Source: Thermoanaerobaculia bacterium (lineage in GTDB: Bacteria > Acidobacteriota > Thermoanaerobaculia > UBA5066). From it: DNA of 64,000 nt. The DNA is taken from assembly GCA_048500275.1 (NCBI GenBank), contig JASNYI010000002.1, forward strand, positions 144,784-208,783. Reading direction: 5' to 3'. The notes beneath the pieces are model-generated. The model ran no database searches. It worked only from the letters and a program-made list of their open reading frames with translations, and was not told the origin of the DNA. The translations under genes and the position numbers were made by a program. Shown piece after piece: positions 5,693 through 11,868 of the stretch (its first letter is position 1; each line of letters opens with the position of its first letter).

Positions 5693-6649
5693 TCAGTCCG
5701 GGATCATGACGACGAGGTACCGGCTGTCGCGCCAGAAGGCGCCGTGGTCGGTCACCTGGAGCGTCGACATGTTCGGTCCGCCGGAGACGATCCGGTAGCT
5801 CTCCTCCGGATGCCCGGGAAGGACTTTCACCTTGTCCGCGGGCGCCGGGATCGCGAGCTGGGCCTCCACCGTCGTGTCGATCTCGCGGAAGACCCCGGGG
5901 TCGTATCTCCCCGTCTCCTGCCAGGCGCCGCCGAGGCCGAGGATCGAGCCCTTCTTCTCGACGAGGCCCTTGTCCTTCAGCACCTTCTTTCCGGCCACCG
6001 CGACGAAGGCCCTGTTGATCTCCTTCGTCTTCGCCTCGATGACGCCGTCCCTCTCCTGGATCAGCGTGTCCTTGGCGAGGAGGAAGCCCTCCTGCACCCG
6101 GACCTTCTCGTCGAGGTCGACGACCGTTTTCTGGAGGGTCGCGATCGTCGTGTCCTTCTCTTCCAGCGACCGCTTCAGCTCGTCCACGAGCTTCTGGAGG
6201 GAGGCCACTCTCTGGCCGCTCGCCCGCCGCTCCTTCTCGAGGCGCGCGAGCTTGCCGAGGTTCTCGCGGATGGCGGTCCGAATCGTCCCGAGCTCGTCGG
6301 CGAGGATCTCGCGCGTCGAGACCCGGGTCTGCCCTTCGCGGGTGACGTCGAGCGTCCGCTTCAGGATCTTGAGCTCCTGGCCGCGGATCTCCTCGAGCCC
6401 GGCCTGGACTTCCGCGATCGTCGCGGCGGCCTCCGCGTCGGCGGTCTCGGCCGCCTGCAGCTGCTGCGTGAGCCGGGCGTTCTCCTCGGTCAGGATCTGG
6501 TTGCGCTCGTCGAGAGCCTGGTTCGCGGAATCCGAACGGCTTCCCAGGTCCTTCCCGGAGCAGCCGCCGAGAGAGAGGACGACCGCGAGGAGCGGGGCGA
6601 GAGCGAGGGGAAGGGGGGAGCGTCTGTCGTCAGCTGATTTGATCCTCAT
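5693..6649 (-). CDS. Coiled-coil lipoprotein resembling the Cbp1-type (Bacteroidota) adhesin family
   Basis: AGGAGG RBS, ATG 6649, lipobox LSLGGC, long heptad coiled coil, C-terminal domain AFVAVAGKKVLKDKGLVEKKG...GHPEESY...FWRDSRYLVV. Family assignment from remembered similarity. Confidence 0.8.
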   Translation of the reverse strand: MRIKSADDRRSPLPLALAPLLAVVLSLGGCSGKDLGSRSDSANQALDERNQILTEENARLTQQLQAAETADAEAAATIAEVQAGLEEIRGQELKILKRTLDVTREGQTRVSTREILADELGTIRTAIRENLGKLARLEKERRASGQRVASLQKLVDELKRSLEEKDTTIATLQKTVVDLDEKVRVQEGFLLAKDTLIQERDGVIEAKTKEINRAFVAVAGKKVLKDKGLVEKKGSILGLGGAWQETGRYDPGVFREIDTTVEAQLAIPAPADKVKVLPGHPEESYRIVSGGPNMSTLQVTDHGAFWRDSRYLVVMIPD

Positions 6650-6674: not shown

Positions 6675-6689
6675 TCAAGACGCGGGCCA
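6675..6689 (-). promoter_or_regulatory. Possible sigma-54 promoter (-24/-12) for the lipoprotein gene
   Basis: Minus strand TGGC-CCGCGTC-TTGA: correct N7 spacing but GA instead of GC at -12; 25 bp upstream of the ATG. Confidence 0.4.
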
Positions 6690-6797: not shown

Positions 6798-6812
6798 CGG
6801 AAAGACTTTCCG
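6798..6812. promoter_or_regulatory. Palindromic candidate enhancer (bEBP upstream activating sequence)
   Basis: Perfect inverted repeat CGGAAAG-A-CTTTCCG; further CGGAAAG half-sites at 6700-6706 and 6818-6824. Confidence 0.45.
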
Positions 6813-6931: not shown

Positions 6932-7530
6932 GTGCTCCCGCTGCCGCCGGCCCTCGCGGTCCTGCGCCACGCGCTGGCCGACCCGCTCTCCGCGGCGACG
7001 GCGAAGGTCGAGGTCCTCTCCGCCCGCCTTCGCCGGGAGCTTCCCGCGCTCGCGGCGAGGGCAGAGGACCTGGGCGCCGACCTCGCCACGGCCGGGCGTC
7101 TCCTCGACCTCCTCGCCGCCCTCGCCGACATCTCGGAGGAGTCGCCCGAGCCGACGCCGTTCAGGCGCCTCGTCGCCCCCTTCGGAGCGGTGACGGAGGC
7201 CGCGGCCGGGACGGCCGTCGTCCTGGTCCGCCCGGCGTCGGCCGCGGACGCGATCCGTCGCGTCGTCGCGTATGGCACCTTGCGGGGAGGCGCCCCATCC
7301 GTCGTGGCGCGGAGCGGGGCCGGCGACGTCGAGGTCGTCGTCGAGGGGCTCGGACCTGCGCCCGAGGTGCCCCTCGACCGGCTCCTGGTCCTCCCGAGAG
7401 AGGTGCCGGAGGCCGACGAGCTCTTCGTCGCTCACGCGGCGGCCTTGGCCGACGGAGGCTCGCTGAGGCTCTCGGCGCGGGACGCCTTCCTCGAAGCGGT
7501 CCTCTCCTGGCCCGCCCCGGTTGAGACGCC

Positions 7531-7534
<4 letters not shown>
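6932..7534 (+). CDS. Degenerate histidine-kinase-like protein (DHp + ATP-binding-defective CA domain); ChpT-like phosphotransferase candidate
   Basis: H-box-like LRHALADPLSA is retained; segments in the N, G1 and G2 box positions lack the conserved Asn/Asp/Gly. Its stop overlaps the ATG of the response regulator. Confidence 0.6.
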
Positions 7535-8887
<1,353 letters not shown>

Positions 8888-8910
<23 letters not shown>

Positions 8911-10690
8911 CGGCAGCGAGGAGCTCGGAGACCTTCCCCGCGGCGACCGGCTTGACGAGGTGGTGGTCGATTCCGGCGGCGAGGGCGCGGGCGCGCTCCT
9001 CGCGGCCCGCCCAGCCCGAGAGGGCGACGAGCAGGGTTCCCTCGAGCGCGGCCTCGGCCCTGAGGCGGCGCGCGACCTCGTAGCCGTCGAACCCGGGAAG
9101 GCCGAGGTCGAGGACGACCGCGTCGGGCCGGAGGCGCAGTGCGGCCTCGACGCCCGAGGGGCCGTCCGCTTCGACGTGGACCTCGTGTCCGAAGAGGGCC
9201 AGCGCCTCGGCGAGGGCGCGGGCGCCGTCGACGTTGTCCTCGACGACGAGCACGTGGCGCGGTGTCACCTCCGGCGCGGGCTCGTCCCGGCCGGCCGGAG
9301 CGGGCCGCGGCGCCGTCGCCCGCGGGAGGCGGAGCGTGAAGGTGCTCCCTCGCCCCGGACCCGGGCTCGAGGCCGCCAGGCTCCCGCCGTGAAGCTGCGC
9401 GAGACGTCGGGAGAGGGCCAGTCCGACTCCCAGGCCCTCGTCGGAGCCGGATCTCCCGGCTCCCTGTTCGAACATGCCGAAGACCCTCTCGAGGTCCTCG
9501 GGCGCCAGCCCGATCCCGTCGTCGGTCACCCGGACGACGGCCTCCACCTCGTCGGCGGCGACCGCGAGCTCGATCCGCCCGCCCTCGGGCGCGTACCTCG
9601 ACGCGTTCGTGAGGAGGTTCGTGAGGACCTGCGCGAGGCGGACCGGGTCTCCCTCCACGAGGATTCCCTCCTCGGGCAGACGCACAGAGAGCGCGCTCCG
9701 CCTCGCGTCGAGCACGGGGCGGGTCGCCTCCAGGGCCGCCTCGACGACGTCGGTCAGAGCCACGGCCTCCTTGCGCAGGACGACCCTGTTGCTCGTCACC
9801 CGAGAGAGGTCGAGCAGGTCGTCGACGAGCCGCGTCAGGTGCGAGAGCTGGCGCGCCAGGATCGACCGGGACAGGGCGCGCCGCCCGGGGGTCCTCTCGT
9901 CCGGGGCGGCCTCGGTCGCGCCGAGCAGGTCCACGGCGTTCCTCATCGCCGCGAGAGGGTTTCGGAGCTCGTGCGCGAGCGAGGCGAGAAACTCGTCCTT
10001 CCGCCGGTCGGCTTCGCGCAGCGATTCGTTCGCCTTCTCGAGCGCGGCGGCGGTCTCGGCGTCGGCCTCGAGCCCCCGGCGCAGGAGGAGGAACGCCACG
10101 ACGACGAGGCAGAGGCCGAGGAGCGTCGAGACGATCGCGGAGAAGACGGCCGTGAACCGCCGGCGGGCCGCCCGCACCTCCCGGGAAGAGAGGACCCGGC
10201 GCTCCGCGTCCTCGACCGCGTTCAGGGCCTCGCGTGTCGACGGCACTTCGGAGGCCCCGGAAGGCCCGGGCGGAACGAGGTCCGCCGTGCCGGTCGGTCC
10301 CGATCCCGCCCGCCGCGCTTCCTCGGTCAGCGCTGCCAGCTCGCGCCTCGCCGCCAGCCCCAGTCCGGCGAGCCGTTCCACCTGCGCCGGAGCGTCGTGC
10401 AAGAGGTCGCCGAGACGGTCGAGCCGGACCCCGAGGACGGTCCTGGCCGCCTCGAGCGCCGCGAGGGAGCTCCGGCCCTCCGTCAGGAGATACGTGCGCT
10501 GGGCCGCCTCGGCGTTCCTCAGCGTCCCGTCGAGGCGCGCCAGCTCCGAGAGGACCTGGTGCGAACGGGTCACGTCGCGCTGCACGGCGACGAGGCCGTG
10601 GAGGTTGCCGAACGTCAGGACGGCGTTGGCCGCGAGTGCCGCGACCGCGACGCCGAGGACCGCCCGCTCCTTGCCTGCGAGAACGCTCAC
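8888..10690 (-). CDS. Hybrid sensor histidine kinase (TM-CHASE3-like-TM-HisKA-HATPase-REC)
   Basis: FLASLAHELRNPL, QVLTNLLTNASRY, DDGIG, GLGVGL, C-terminal REC (VVEDNVD, DLGLPGFDG). GTG 10690 is the likely start. Confidence 0.92.
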
Positions 10691-10725
10691 GGAAAGATCT
10701 TCTCGCGAGACGGAGGATTTTTCCG
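10690..10725. promoter_or_regulatory. Tandem candidate enhancer sites upstream of the sigma-54 promoter at 10789
   Basis: CGGAAAGATCTTCTC (10690-10704) and CGGAGGATTTTTCCG (10711-10725), 21 bp apart, resembling the 6798 palindrome. Confidence 0.4.
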
Positions 10726-10788
10726 GGGATCTCCCGCCCGCGTGGCGGCGGAAGACCGTGGAAAGGCCACCGCGAGCGCCACCGGGGC

Positions 10789-10804
10789 TGGCCGACGCCT
10801 TGCT
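10789..10804 (+). promoter_or_regulatory. Sigma-54 promoter (-24/-12)
   Basis: TGGC-CGACGCC-TTGCT with exact N7 spacing, upstream of the 10879 gene and next to a bEBP gene. Confidence 0.65.
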
Positions 10805-10878
10805 AATCCCTGCGCGGACCGGCGGTGGCCGGAGGCCCGGCAGCGGGGATCGACCGCCGGGATCGCAGGAGGTTCGAA

Positions 10879-11385
10879 ATGGGTTCGATCGACGCCCGGA
10901 ACGAGAGCCCGACACCCCTCGAAGCCGGGGCCCTGCTCGCCCTCCTCAGGTCGGAGCTGTCGGCGTGCGCGGCGTACCGCGTGGTCGTCCACGCGGTCGA
11001 GCGGGGCGAGGAATTCCCGGCGGTCTCCCTTCGGTGCCTCCTCAGGAGCCACCGGCGGTTCGCGGCCGAGCTGCGCGACGTGCTCCAGCGCCGGTCGGTG
11101 GATCCCTCCGGGATCGAAGGCGTGGCCGACGAGTGGACCGAGGTGCACGACGGGATCGCCGGTCTCCCGGGCCGGACGGACGGACCCTCGATCTTCCGCG
11201 CCCTCCGGGCAGGGGAGCGGGCGGCGCTCGCGAAGGCCCGGGCCGCGATCGAGGTCGTCGACGAACCCTCCGCCGCGTTCGTGCAACACCGGTTCGTCCC
11301 GGGCCTCGAAGAGCACCTCGAGCTGCTCGAGACGCTGGCGGGGTTCCAGGACTGGCTCGCGCGCCCCGAGCCGCAGCTCGCCTGA
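10879..11385 (+). CDS. Ferritin-like four-helix protein (DUF2383/PA2169-like)
   Basis: AGGAGG 10867-10872, ATG 10879. LLRSELSACAAY...HRRFAAELRDVLQRR...ALRAGERAALA helix pattern. Confidence 0.7.
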   Translation: MGSIDARNESPTPLEAGALLALLRSELSACAAYRVVVHAVERGEEFPAVSLRCLLRSHRRFAAELRDVLQRRSVDPSGIEGVADEWTEVHDGIAGLPGRTDGPSIFRALRAGERAALAKARAAIEVVDEPSAAFVQHRFVPGLEEHLELLETLAGFQDWLARPEPQLA

Positions 11386-11852: not shown

Positions 11853-11868
11853 AGCAAGCGGTGTGCCC
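11853..11868 (-). promoter_or_regulatory. Sigma-54 promoter (-24/-12)
   Basis: Minus strand GGGCAC-ACCGC-TTGCT versus consensus TGGCAC-N5-TTGCW; upstream of the 11779 start. Confidence 0.7.

What the first reader, a model, noticed from the sequence alone, without database searches (positions are those of the whole stretch)
6932..7534. ChpT-like pseudokinase that could complete a His-Asp-His-Asp relay to a sigma-54 activator
Seen: a 200-aa protein with no sensor or TM that keeps the H-box His (LRHALADPL). Compared with the neighbouring true kinase, the N box (QVLTNLLTN vs AIRRVVAYG), G1 (DDGIG vs EGLGP) and G2 (GLGVGL vs ELFVA) are degenerate. It is translationally coupled to the NtrC-type regulator, and the convergent kinase is a hybrid with a C-terminal REC but no HPt. 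Established: Caulobacter ChpT is a DHp + dead-CA phosphotransferase downstream of a hybrid kinase. Inference: an analogous relay module feeding a bEBP outside Alphaproteobacteria.
Basis: partly seen in the sequence, partly recalled or inferred. Interest (0 to 1): 0.65.

Follow-up and report, generated by a model that had tools for sequence, protein, structure and literature searches.

The report
Kinase-derived phosphate shuttle feeding a sigma-54 activator
A small, sensorless relative of bacterial histidine kinases that keeps its phosphorylatable histidine but has lost every ATP-binding motif is always inherited with a hybrid sensor kinase and a sigma-54 activator in one uncultured Acidobacteria family. 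It most likely carries phosphate between the two, as ChpT does in Caulobacter, but it evolved separately.

Summary
ORF 6932-7534 (+) encodes a real, conserved 200-aa protein, here called X. Its TGA stop overlaps the ATG of a REC-sigma54-HTH activator (ATGA). A convergent CHASE3-HisKA-HATPase_c-REC hybrid kinase lies next to it and has no HPt domain.

- **Fold:** AlphaFold (pLDDT 90) gives a helical hairpin plus an alpha/beta domain. Foldseek matches DHp-CA cores of HisKA kinases (TM up to 0.70).
- **Motifs:** Across 32 homologues LRHALADPLS is invariant. The N-box Asn, the G1 Asp, the G2 glycines and the acid next to the His are all absent, and the ATP lid is shorter.
- **Family:** No Pfam, NCBIfam or PDB sequence hit, including ChpT's PF10090. 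A profile reaches HisKA/HATPase_c kinases, so X is a degenerate kinase offshoot.
- **Linkage:** In all 26 related loci with enough flank, X directly precedes the orthologous activator. The orthologous hybrid kinase lies within 7 kb on the opposite strand. All three genes are lost together.
- **HPt census:** The genome has no free-standing HPt.

Best reading (about 0.6): a ChpT-like dimeric His phosphotransferase completing a His-Asp-His-Asp relay. Phosphotransfer is inferred, not shown. It is a new variant of a known kind and moderately interesting. All members come from uncultured Thermoanaerobaculia/Holophagales genomes.

The parts
6932..7534 (+). X: a 200-aa sensorless DHp + degenerate CA-like protein, the putative dimeric histidine phosphotransferase.
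   Evidence: Translation. 82 homologues. AF2 pLDDT 90 with helices 7-36 and 38-69 plus an alpha/beta domain at 73-194. Foldseek matches to HisKA kinase cores.
6962..6991 (+). H-box codons for L11-R-H13-A-L-A-D-P-L-S20. His13 (6968-6970) is the predicted phospho-acceptor. Pro sits at H+5 as in HisKA and ChpT. H+1 is Ala and H+4 is Asp, instead of the canonical Glu/Asp and Thr/Asn.
   Evidence: All ten residues are invariant in 32 of 32 sequences. They align to HELRNPL of the neighbour kinase.
7229..7459 (+). Degenerate ATP-binding region, residues 100-176. It covers the N-box helix equivalent (RVVAYG for NLLTNA), the G1 equivalent (VEGLG for DDGIG), a lid about 8 residues shorter, the G2 equivalent (PEADEL for GLGVGL) and the retained DGG turn.
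   Evidence: In the family, the N-box Asn columns read R/S/G and F (28 of 32), and the G1 Asp column reads V/L/I/F/M. The invariant residues are R100, F165, A167, G175 and G176.
7531..7534 (+). ATGA overlap of the X stop with the activator start, indicating translational coupling.
   Evidence: The same 4-nt overlap occurs in L001, L002, L004, L005 and L006.
7531..8910 (+). NtrC-type sigma-54 activator (REC - AAA+ - HTH_8) with an intact receiver: E7-D8-D9, D51, T76, F at K-3, K98. It is the predicted terminal acceptor.
8888..10915 (-). Hybrid sensor kinase: TM - CHASE3 - TM - HisKA - HATPase_c - REC, with no HPt. This is the maximal ORF; the true start is probably further in, since the orthologue in L002 is 598 aa. 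Its REC carries an invariant VALSGW motif and His in place of the Y/F switch residue.

Best explanation
X is a kinase-derived histidine phosphotransferase that works like ChpT or Spo0B. It probably forms a homodimer through its helical hairpin, making a four-helix bundle that exposes His13. The CHASE3 hybrid kinase autophosphorylates and passes the phosphate to its own C-terminal receiver. That receiver docks on X and phosphorylates His13. The receiver of the co-translated sigma-54 activator then takes the phosphate from His13 and switches on sigma-54 promoters. The flow is probably reversible, so the kinase could also drain the activator through X. The C-terminal domain keeps the kinase ATP-binding fold as a scaffold and docking surface but no longer binds ATP. 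Shown here: the fold, the invariant His, family-wide loss of all ATP-binding motifs and of the catalytic acid at H+1, and strict co-inheritance of the three genes. Inferred: dimerisation, phosphorylation of His13, and the direction and partners of transfer.
For: (1) Fold. The AF2 model has pLDDT 90 and pTM 0.84, with a helical hairpin plus an alpha/beta sandwich. Foldseek finds 271 PDB matches at E<=1e-3. The top ones cover both domains of HisKA kinase cores (CpxA 4biv TMq 0.70, KdpD, HK853, WalK, ZraS, RetS).
(2) Homology. A family profile searched against 1.84 billion proteins reaches proteins with Pfam HisKA (29 of 39) and HATPase_c (20 of 39).
(3) Phospho-acceptor site. L-R-H-A-L-A-D-P-L-S is invariant in 32 of 32 sequences that are otherwise only 33-83% identical.
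(4) No kinase chemistry. The N-box Asn, G1 Asp and G2 glycines are absent family-wide, the lid is shortened, and H+1 is an invariant Ala.
(5) Linkage. In the window and all 26 related loci with enough flank, X directly precedes the orthologous activator. The orthologous hybrid kinase (core 47-82% identical, REC 56-78%) lies on the opposite strand 1.3-6 kb downstream in 25 loci and 7 kb upstream in one (L054). Two genomes carry two complete paralogous modules.
(6) Co-loss. Of 14 X-negative genomes in the same taxonomic family, 9 lack the activator orthologue and 12-13 lack the kinase orthologue. All 5 X-positive controls have both.
(7) Need for a shuttle. The kinase ends in a REC with no HPt. 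The 5.6-Mb, 97%-complete genome has only three Hpt domains. One is in a CheA and two are fused to other hybrid kinases, so no free HPt was found.
(8) The kinase REC looks like an intermediary receiver. It has an invariant A-L-S-G-W (FATGUY-like) motif and His rather than Y/F at the switch position. PMC9981736 describes such features for CckA-REC and for receiver-only shuttles.
(9) Precedent. ChpT is a dimeric DHp + atypical Bergerat-fold protein with His33 and Pro38 that neither binds ATP nor autophosphorylates (PMC3433190).
Against: There is no biochemical evidence. X has no sequence match to the ChpT family (PF10090) or to Spo0B families, and ChpT is not among the 50 Foldseek hits shown. The analogy therefore rests on architecture and context, not on membership. 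Five other hybrid kinases in this genome also lack an HPt, so lacking an HPt does not by itself demand a shuttle. The kinase's own DHp could phosphorylate the activator directly. H+4 is Asp and H+1 is Ala, an H-box variant with no characterised precedent that I know of. The alpha1-helix similarity between the two receivers (rank 1 of 66 in this genome) does not hold in the second subfamily (about 4 of 17 positions by eye), so it is not solid support.
Confidence: 0.6

Rival explanations
1. X is a dedicated phosphatase or negative modulator of the co-translated activator. It would be a kinase core frozen in a receiver-binding state that removes or blocks phosphate on the activator's REC without His13 ever carrying phosphate. 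The hybrid kinase or another kinase would phosphorylate the activator directly.
For: Bifunctional HisKA kinases dephosphorylate their regulators through the DHp alone (established knowledge). X keeps the DHp docking helix invariant, is stoichiometrically coupled to the activator, and has no ATP site.
Against: The HisKA phosphatase motif needs Thr/Asn at H+4 and usually Glu/Asp at H+1, but X has invariant Asp and Ala there. This reading does not explain why the hybrid kinase with its REC is co-inherited and co-lost with X, nor why the His is invariant.
Confidence: 0.15
2. X is a scaffold or heterodimerising regulator of the hybrid kinase. Its DHp would pair with the kinase's DHp, as RetS does with GacS, or hold the activator near the kinase, tuning direct kinase-to-activator transfer without carrying phosphate.
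For: Pseudokinases with a DHp-CA fold that regulate other kinases exist; RetS is among the fold matches, and DivL is known from the literature (titles). The three genes are co-inherited.
Against: An invariant H-box of ten residues including His and Pro is more than a scaffold needs. X and the kinase DHp are barely alignable (hhalign probability 0.4%), which argues against heterodimer compatibility.
Confidence: 0.12
3. X is a genuine minimal histidine kinase with an unconventional ATP site and is the cognate NtrB-like partner of the activator. The hybrid kinase would be a separate input.
For: X sits exactly where cognate kinases of NtrC-type regulators sit. From memory, and not checkable here, Myxococcus Nla6S is a small cytoplasmic kinase upstream of the activator Nla6. 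It has an atypical CA domain and was reported to autophosphorylate. Some distant short relatives of X still have N and G2 boxes (P0139, P0142).
Against: Every residue class known to bind Mg-ATP is missing family-wide, the lid is truncated, and the catalytic acid at H+1 is Ala. X has no sensor at all, so nothing would regulate it.
Confidence: 0.07

Closest known systems
ChpT (Caulobacter/Brucella CckA-ChpT-CtrA/CpdR phosphorelay; Pfam PF10090 HPTransfase)
   Same: Both are about 200-250 aa with no sensor and consist of a DHp-like helical hairpin carrying the phospho-His with Pro at H+5. Both have a C-terminal Bergerat-like domain with a crippled ATP lid and no ATP-binding motifs. Both sit between a hybrid kinase that ends in a REC without HPt and a terminal response regulator (PMC3433190).
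   Different: There is no detectable sequence membership: PF10090 is not hit at E<=1. X derives from HisKA-type kinases. The output is a sigma-54 activator, not an OmpR-type CtrA. X is gene-linked and translationally coupled to its regulator. It occurs in Acidobacteriota, not Alphaproteobacteria. H+1 is Ala.
Spo0B (Bacillus sporulation phosphorelay)
   Same: [quoted passage not shown]
   Different: X shows no sequence match to Spo0B families. Spo0B takes phosphate from a stand-alone receiver (Spo0F), not from a hybrid kinase, and its output regulator is of a different type.
LuxQ/LuxN-LuxU-LuxO (Vibrio) and ShkA-ShpA-TacA (Caulobacter) phosphorelays
   Same: The logic is the same: hybrid kinase, then a His shuttle, then the REC of a sigma-54 activator. 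LuxO is among the best NCBIfam matches of the activator. ShkA is described in PMC6969517 and PMC9981736.
   Different: Their shuttles (LuxU, ShpA) are monomeric four-helix-bundle HPt proteins (PF01627). X is a DHp-CA pseudokinase, and no free HPt is detectable in this genome.
Canonical NtrB/NtrC-type HisKA kinase-activator pairs, and Myxococcus Nla6S-Nla6
   Same: The gene order is the same, with a kinase-like gene directly upstream of the activator. X is remotely homologous to HisKA/HATPase_c. Nla6S is a small cytoplasmic protein with an unusual CA domain (from memory).
   Different: X lacks a sensor, the N/G1/G2 boxes and the H+1 acid. Nla6S was reported as an active kinase. Its sequence could not be compared here.

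Membership tests
ChpT family (PF10090 HPTransfase) | Sequence match to the family model | tested here: not met
   hmmscan of X against Pfam at E<=1 returned no family at all. In the window's own genome PF10090 gives only weak cross-hits inside large kinase ORFs, none of them at X.
ChpT family (PF10090 HPTransfase) | N-terminal helical hairpin (DHp-like) plus C-terminal Bergerat-type alpha/beta domain | tested here: met
   The AF2 model has helices 7-36 and 38-69 and an alpha/beta domain at 73-194, with pLDDT 90. Foldseek aligns both domains to kinase cores with TMq up to 0.70. ChpT itself is not in the 50 rows shown.
ChpT family (PF10090 HPTransfase) | Conserved phosphorylatable His in helix 1, followed by a kink-inducing Pro | tested here: met
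   H13 and P18 are invariant in 32 of 32 sequences. ChpT has His33 and Pro38.
ChpT family (PF10090 HPTransfase) | CA-like domain that cannot bind ATP and does not autophosphorylate | tested here: inconclusive
   At motif level the feature is met: no N-box Asn, no G1 Asp, no G2 glycines, and a shorter lid across the family. ATP binding and autophosphorylation themselves need biochemistry.
ChpT family (PF10090 HPTransfase) | Works between a hybrid kinase REC (no HPt) and a terminal response regulator | tested here: inconclusive
   Context fits: there is a conserved, co-inherited hybrid kinase without HPt and an adjacent regulator. Transfer itself cannot be tested with these tools.
ChpT family (PF10090 HPTransfase) | Homodimer forming a four-helix bundle | not testable with these tools
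   Only single-chain prediction is available.
HisKA-type histidine kinase (PF00512 + PF02518) | Detectable homology to HisKA and HATPase_c | tested here: met
   X alone gives no Pfam hit. The family profile does reach proteins of which 29 of 39 carry HisKA and 20 of 39 carry HATPase_c. The best PDB sequence hit that is a kinase is KdpD, at a weak E of 0.12.
HisKA-type histidine kinase (PF00512 + PF02518) | H-box H-[ED]-x-x-[TN]-P | tested here: not met
   X has H-A-L-A-D-P: His and Pro are kept, H+1 is Ala and H+4 is Asp, all invariant.
HisKA-type histidine kinase (PF00512 + PF02518) | N, G1, F and G2 boxes for Mg-ATP binding | tested here: not met
   NLLTNA aligns to RVVAYG, DDGIG to VEGLG and GLGVGL to PEADEL, and the family columns are not conserved as Asn/Asp/Gly.
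HPt domain (PF01627) | Monomeric four-helix bundle matching the Hpt model | tested here: not met
   No Pfam hit, and the fold is a hairpin plus an alpha/beta domain.
Spo0B (PF14689 / PF14682) | Sequence match to Spo0B models | tested here: not met
   No Pfam family at E<=1.
Nla6S-like kinases (Myxococcus) | Homology to Nla6S and its atypical but active CA domain | not tested
   The paper is not held and no sequence was available. The named distant relatives of X are all metagenomic or Thermoanaerobaculia.

The most novel reading that the evidence does not exclude
X would be the founding member of a third, independently evolved class of dimeric, kinase-derived histidine phosphotransferases, after Spo0B and ChpT. 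It would have been born from the NtrB-like partner of a sigma-54 activator. Evolutionary intermediates appear to survive in the same bacterial order: short sensorless HisKA-like proteins, also always directly upstream of an activator, that keep the canonical H-E-x-x-T-P H-box while their ATP-binding boxes decay to different degrees. This would document how a two-step kinase-regulator pair turns into a four-step phosphorelay by recruiting a hybrid kinase.
Probability: 0.45. Interest if true: 0.6.

Novelty: new variant of a known kind. Interest (0 to 1): 0.45.

Why it matters
Only two kinds of kinase-fold histidine phosphotransferase are known, Spo0B and ChpT, and each is tied to one lineage and one developmental pathway. 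A third, unrelated in sequence and wired to a sigma-54 activator in Acidobacteria, would show that converting a kinase into a shuttle is a recurrent evolutionary route. Current annotation misses such shuttles: X is "hypothetical protein" in every record that names it. Orphan hybrid kinases without an HPt partner may therefore often have hidden partners of this type. The invariant H-A-L-A-D-P H-box, with no acid at H+1 and Asp at H+4, is also a natural test of which H-box residues are needed for phosphotransfer as opposed to autophosphorylation and phosphatase activity.

Tried and rejected
- **Direct sequence annotation of X failed.** Pfam, NCBIfam and PDB phmmer gave nothing. A PDB profile search gave only weak or spurious hits, with a calponin-domain protein at E 0.027 and KdpD at E 0.12.
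- **hhalign of the family against the neighbour kinase** aligned only the DHp, with negligible probability. The motif mapping relies on MAFFT with bridging relatives.
- **Foldseek against ChpT** was not decisive. Only 50 rows are shown, and all are true kinases.
I could not measure pocket closure or domain packing.
- **Shared receiver alpha1 helices.** In this genome the activator REC ranks first of 66 in alpha1 identity to the kinase REC. The similarity is lost in the second subfamily, so I do not count it.
- **Palindrome GGAAAGACTTTCC upstream of X as a conserved enhancer.** It is unique in the window but absent from all related loci.
- **Sigma-54 -24/-12 matches.** There are 21 in the window against 22 expected by chance, so the count says nothing. 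Individual intergenic sites remain candidates only.
- **Nla6S comparison.** The paper is not held.
- **Alternative frames and antisense ORFs over 6932-7534** were rejected as high-GC artefacts.

Full report
**What is there**

The window is about 73% G+C, so long spurious ORFs occur in every frame. The frame 6932-7534 (+) is nevertheless a real gene. It encodes a 200-aa protein, X, with 82 homologues of 196-233 aa in public data. Every record that names them calls them hypothetical. A 32-sequence alignment is 33-83% identical to X and has conserved ends. The TGA stop of X overlaps the ATG of the next gene as ATGA at 7531-7534.

The next gene, 7531-8910, is an NtrC-type activator with Response_reg, Sigma54_activat, AAA_lid_14 and HTH_8 domains. 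Converging on it is a hybrid kinase, 8888-10915 (-), with CHASE3, HisKA, HATPase_c and a C-terminal Response_reg but no Hpt. Upstream and divergent is a Cbp1-family-like lipoprotein gene.

**What X is**

X matches no Pfam or NCBIfam model at E<=1 and no PDB sequence. This includes ChpT's PF10090, the Spo0B families, HisKA, HATPase_c and Hpt.

AlphaFold2 with the family alignment gives a confident model (pLDDT 90, pTM 0.84). It has two long antiparallel helices (7-36 and 38-69) followed by an alpha/beta domain (73-194) whose order of elements matches a kinase CA domain. Foldseek against the PDB returns 271 matches at E<=1e-3. The top 50 are all DHp-CA cores of HisKA-type kinases aligned over both domains, including CpxA (TM 0.70), KdpD, HK853, WalK, ZraS, CusS and RetS.

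A family profile searched against 1.84 billion representative proteins finds only 72 proteins. Of 39 distant ones, 29 carry Pfam HisKA and 20 carry HATPase_c. X is therefore a divergent offshoot of HisKA kinases, homologous to them in both domains.

**What is kept and what is lost**

Ten consecutive residues, L-R-H-A-L-A-D-P-L-S (11-20), are invariant in 32 of 32 sequences. They align to the H-box HELRNPL of the neighbour kinase. His13 and Pro18 occupy the positions of the phospho-His and the H+5 Pro, the same spacing as ChpT's His33 and Pro38.

Everything needed for autophosphorylation is gone across the family:

- The two N-box Asn columns read R/S/G and F (28 of 32).
- The adenine-binding G1 Asp column reads V/L/I/F/M.
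- The G2 GxGxGL is replaced by P/E-E/G-A-E/D-x-L.
- The lid is about 8 residues shorter.
- Only the structural DGG turn and the helix before it (L164, F165, A167) remain.
- The acid at H+1, the general base for autophosphorylation in HisKA kinases (established knowledge), is an invariant Ala.
- The phosphatase residue at H+4 (Thr/Asn) is an invariant Asp.

X has no residues to spare for a sensor, because His13 lies 12 residues from the start.

**Context and co-inheritance**

I compared the window with 26 related loci that had enough flank. They came from two X subfamilies, of about 198 and about 222 aa, which are 36-66% identical to X. In all of them X is followed immediately on the same strand by the orthologous activator (AAA+ region 69-92% identical). 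The orthologous hybrid kinase (core 47-82% identical, REC 56-78%) lies on the opposite strand 1.3-6 kb downstream in 25 loci and 7 kb upstream in one.

The sensor part of the kinase differs between subfamilies: CHASE3 in one, an N-terminal REC or nothing in the other. The HisKA-HATPase_c-REC part is constant. Two genomes carry both subfamilies, each as a complete triad (L053/L062 and L059/L060).

The family is narrow. It appears in 4 of 401 sampled genomes of the phylum and 67 of 175 in the order, with strong matches only in the window's own taxonomic family. All records are MAGs named Thermoanaerobaculia, Holophagales or Acidobacteriota.

Within that taxonomic family the three genes are lost together. 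Of 14 X-negative genomes, 9 have no activator orthologue (best paralogue <=48% identity, against >=63% in X-positive controls). Twelve or thirteen have no kinase orthologue. The one clear exception has both genes at contig ends, which points to an assembly break. These genomes hold 10-33 activator paralogues each, so the linkage is specific and not a by-product of gene density.

**Is a shuttle needed?**

The window's genome (5.6 Mb, 3 contigs, 97% complete) has X in single copy. It has three Hpt domains: one in a CheA and two at the C-termini of other hybrid kinases. My own HMM census finds 59 kinase cores and 8 hybrids with a C-terminal REC, 6 of which lack an Hpt, including this one. No free-standing HPt was detected. 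This fits X supplying the missing His step for its neighbour. The argument is weakened because five other hybrids are equally orphaned.

The kinase's REC carries an invariant V-A-L-S-G-W motif and His at the Y/F switch position, while the activator's REC has the canonical T...F pair. Bruderlin et al. (PMC9981736) report an FxSGY "FATGUY" motif and a variable switch residue. They describe both as marks of CckA-REC and of receiver-only intermediaries that dock on DHp-type partners. They suggest the aromatic residue may touch the partner's CA domain. This is suggestive and not diagnostic.

**Mechanism proposed**

The proposed path is: kinase His, then kinase REC Asp, then X His13, then activator REC Asp51, then sigma-54-dependent transcription. 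It is probably reversible. This is the logic of CckA-ChpT-CtrA, with a ChpT-like protein in the middle. It is also the logic of LuxQ-LuxU-LuxO and ShkA-ShpA-TacA, except that those use HPt shuttles.

Shown here: the fold, the conserved His, the family-wide loss of ATP-binding and catalytic residues, and the co-inheritance of the triad. Inferred: dimerisation, phosphorylation of His13, and the partners and direction of transfer. I put this at about 0.6.

The rivals are:

- A phosphatase or negative modulator of the activator (0.15). The missing T/N at H+4 and the unexplained kinase linkage count against it.
- A scaffold or heterodimerising regulator of the kinase (0.12). The invariant H-box counts against it.
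- A true minimal kinase with an odd ATP site, as reported for Myxococcus Nla6S (0.07). That report is from memory, since the paper is not held. The loss of every ATP-binding motif and of the H+1 acid counts against it.

**A wider pattern**

The weaker profile matches in the same order form a second family of short (about 215-235 aa) sensorless HisKA-like proteins. They have a canonical R-H-E-M-A-T-P-L-S H-box, and their N and G2 boxes range from intact (P0139, P0142) to absent (P0113, P0115, P0120). In 10 of 10 loci examined they also sit directly upstream of a REC-sigma54 activator. In about half of these loci, REC and kinase-core genes lie divergently next door. Sources name some of them "signal transduction histidine kinase".

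This looks like a graded series from kinase to shuttle at the NtrB position. I have not built the phylogeny that would establish the direction of change.

**Comparison and novelty**

X works like ChpT in architecture, motif loss and relay position, but it fails the sequence-membership test for ChpT, Spo0B and HPt. It is best described as an independently derived, HisKA-descended analogue. A relay into a sigma-54 activator is already known; the type of shuttle and its lineage are new. I class it as a new variant of a known kind.

It would interest two-component-system specialists for three reasons. It would be a third origin of kinase-fold phosphotransferases, a hidden partner class for orphan hybrid kinases, and an unusual H-A-x-x-D-P H-box. 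It is unproven and confined to uncultured bacteria, so I score interest at 0.45.

Noticed in passing
L066-L075 (e.g. L066 6995-7657 -, L071 6965-7621 +): A second, more distant family of short sensorless HisKA-like proteins has an RHEMATPLS H-box and variably decayed N/G2 boxes. It lies directly upstream of a REC-sigma54 activator in 10 of 10 loci from the same order. REC and kinase-core genes often lie divergently next door.
   Followed up: partly
window 8891-9265 (-), kinase REC: The hybrid kinase's receiver has an invariant V-A-L-S-G-W (FATGUY-like) motif and His at the aromatic switch position in the window copy and all 25 orthologues recovered. The activator's receiver keeps the canonical T/F pair.
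   Followed up: partly
window 6799-6811: A perfect palindrome, GGAAAGACTTTCC, lies in the intergenic region upstream of X. It is unique in the window (0.08 expected by chance) but absent from all 74 related loci, so it is not a conserved enhancer.
   Followed up: yes
window 6675-6689 (-), 10789-10803 (+), 11854-11868 (-): Sigma-54-like -24/-12 matches flank the module in intergenic positions. Window-wide, the pattern is no more frequent than chance (21 found, 22 expected), so they remain candidates only.
   Followed up: partly
window 5693-6640 (-): A divergent upstream gene matches the NCBIfam Cbp1-family lipoprotein adhesin model (E 2.4e-37). An unannotated gene of 317-318 aa sits in the same position in the closest relatives (L002, L005); I did not compare the sequences.
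   Followed up: no
genomes G553, G554, G511, G560: Genomes of this acidobacterial family carry 10-33 NtrC-type sigma-54 activator paralogues each, an unusually large complement.
   Followed up: no
L059/L060 (G549) and L053/L062 (G555): Two genomes hold both X subfamilies, each with its own activator and hybrid kinase. The whole triad was therefore either duplicated or acquired as a unit.
   Followed up: partly
L084 (JBLMYG010000253.1): A 4.2-kb contig carrying an X homologue is titled Acidithiobacillales bacterium, although its genome falls in the window's own acidobacterial family. This is probably a mislabelled or contaminated bin.
   Followed up: no
window 8888-8910: The activator and the hybrid kinase converge and their 3' ends overlap by 23 bp. 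The kinase ORF's annotated 5' end (10915) probably overshoots the true start, since the orthologue in L002 is 598 aa.
   Followed up: no
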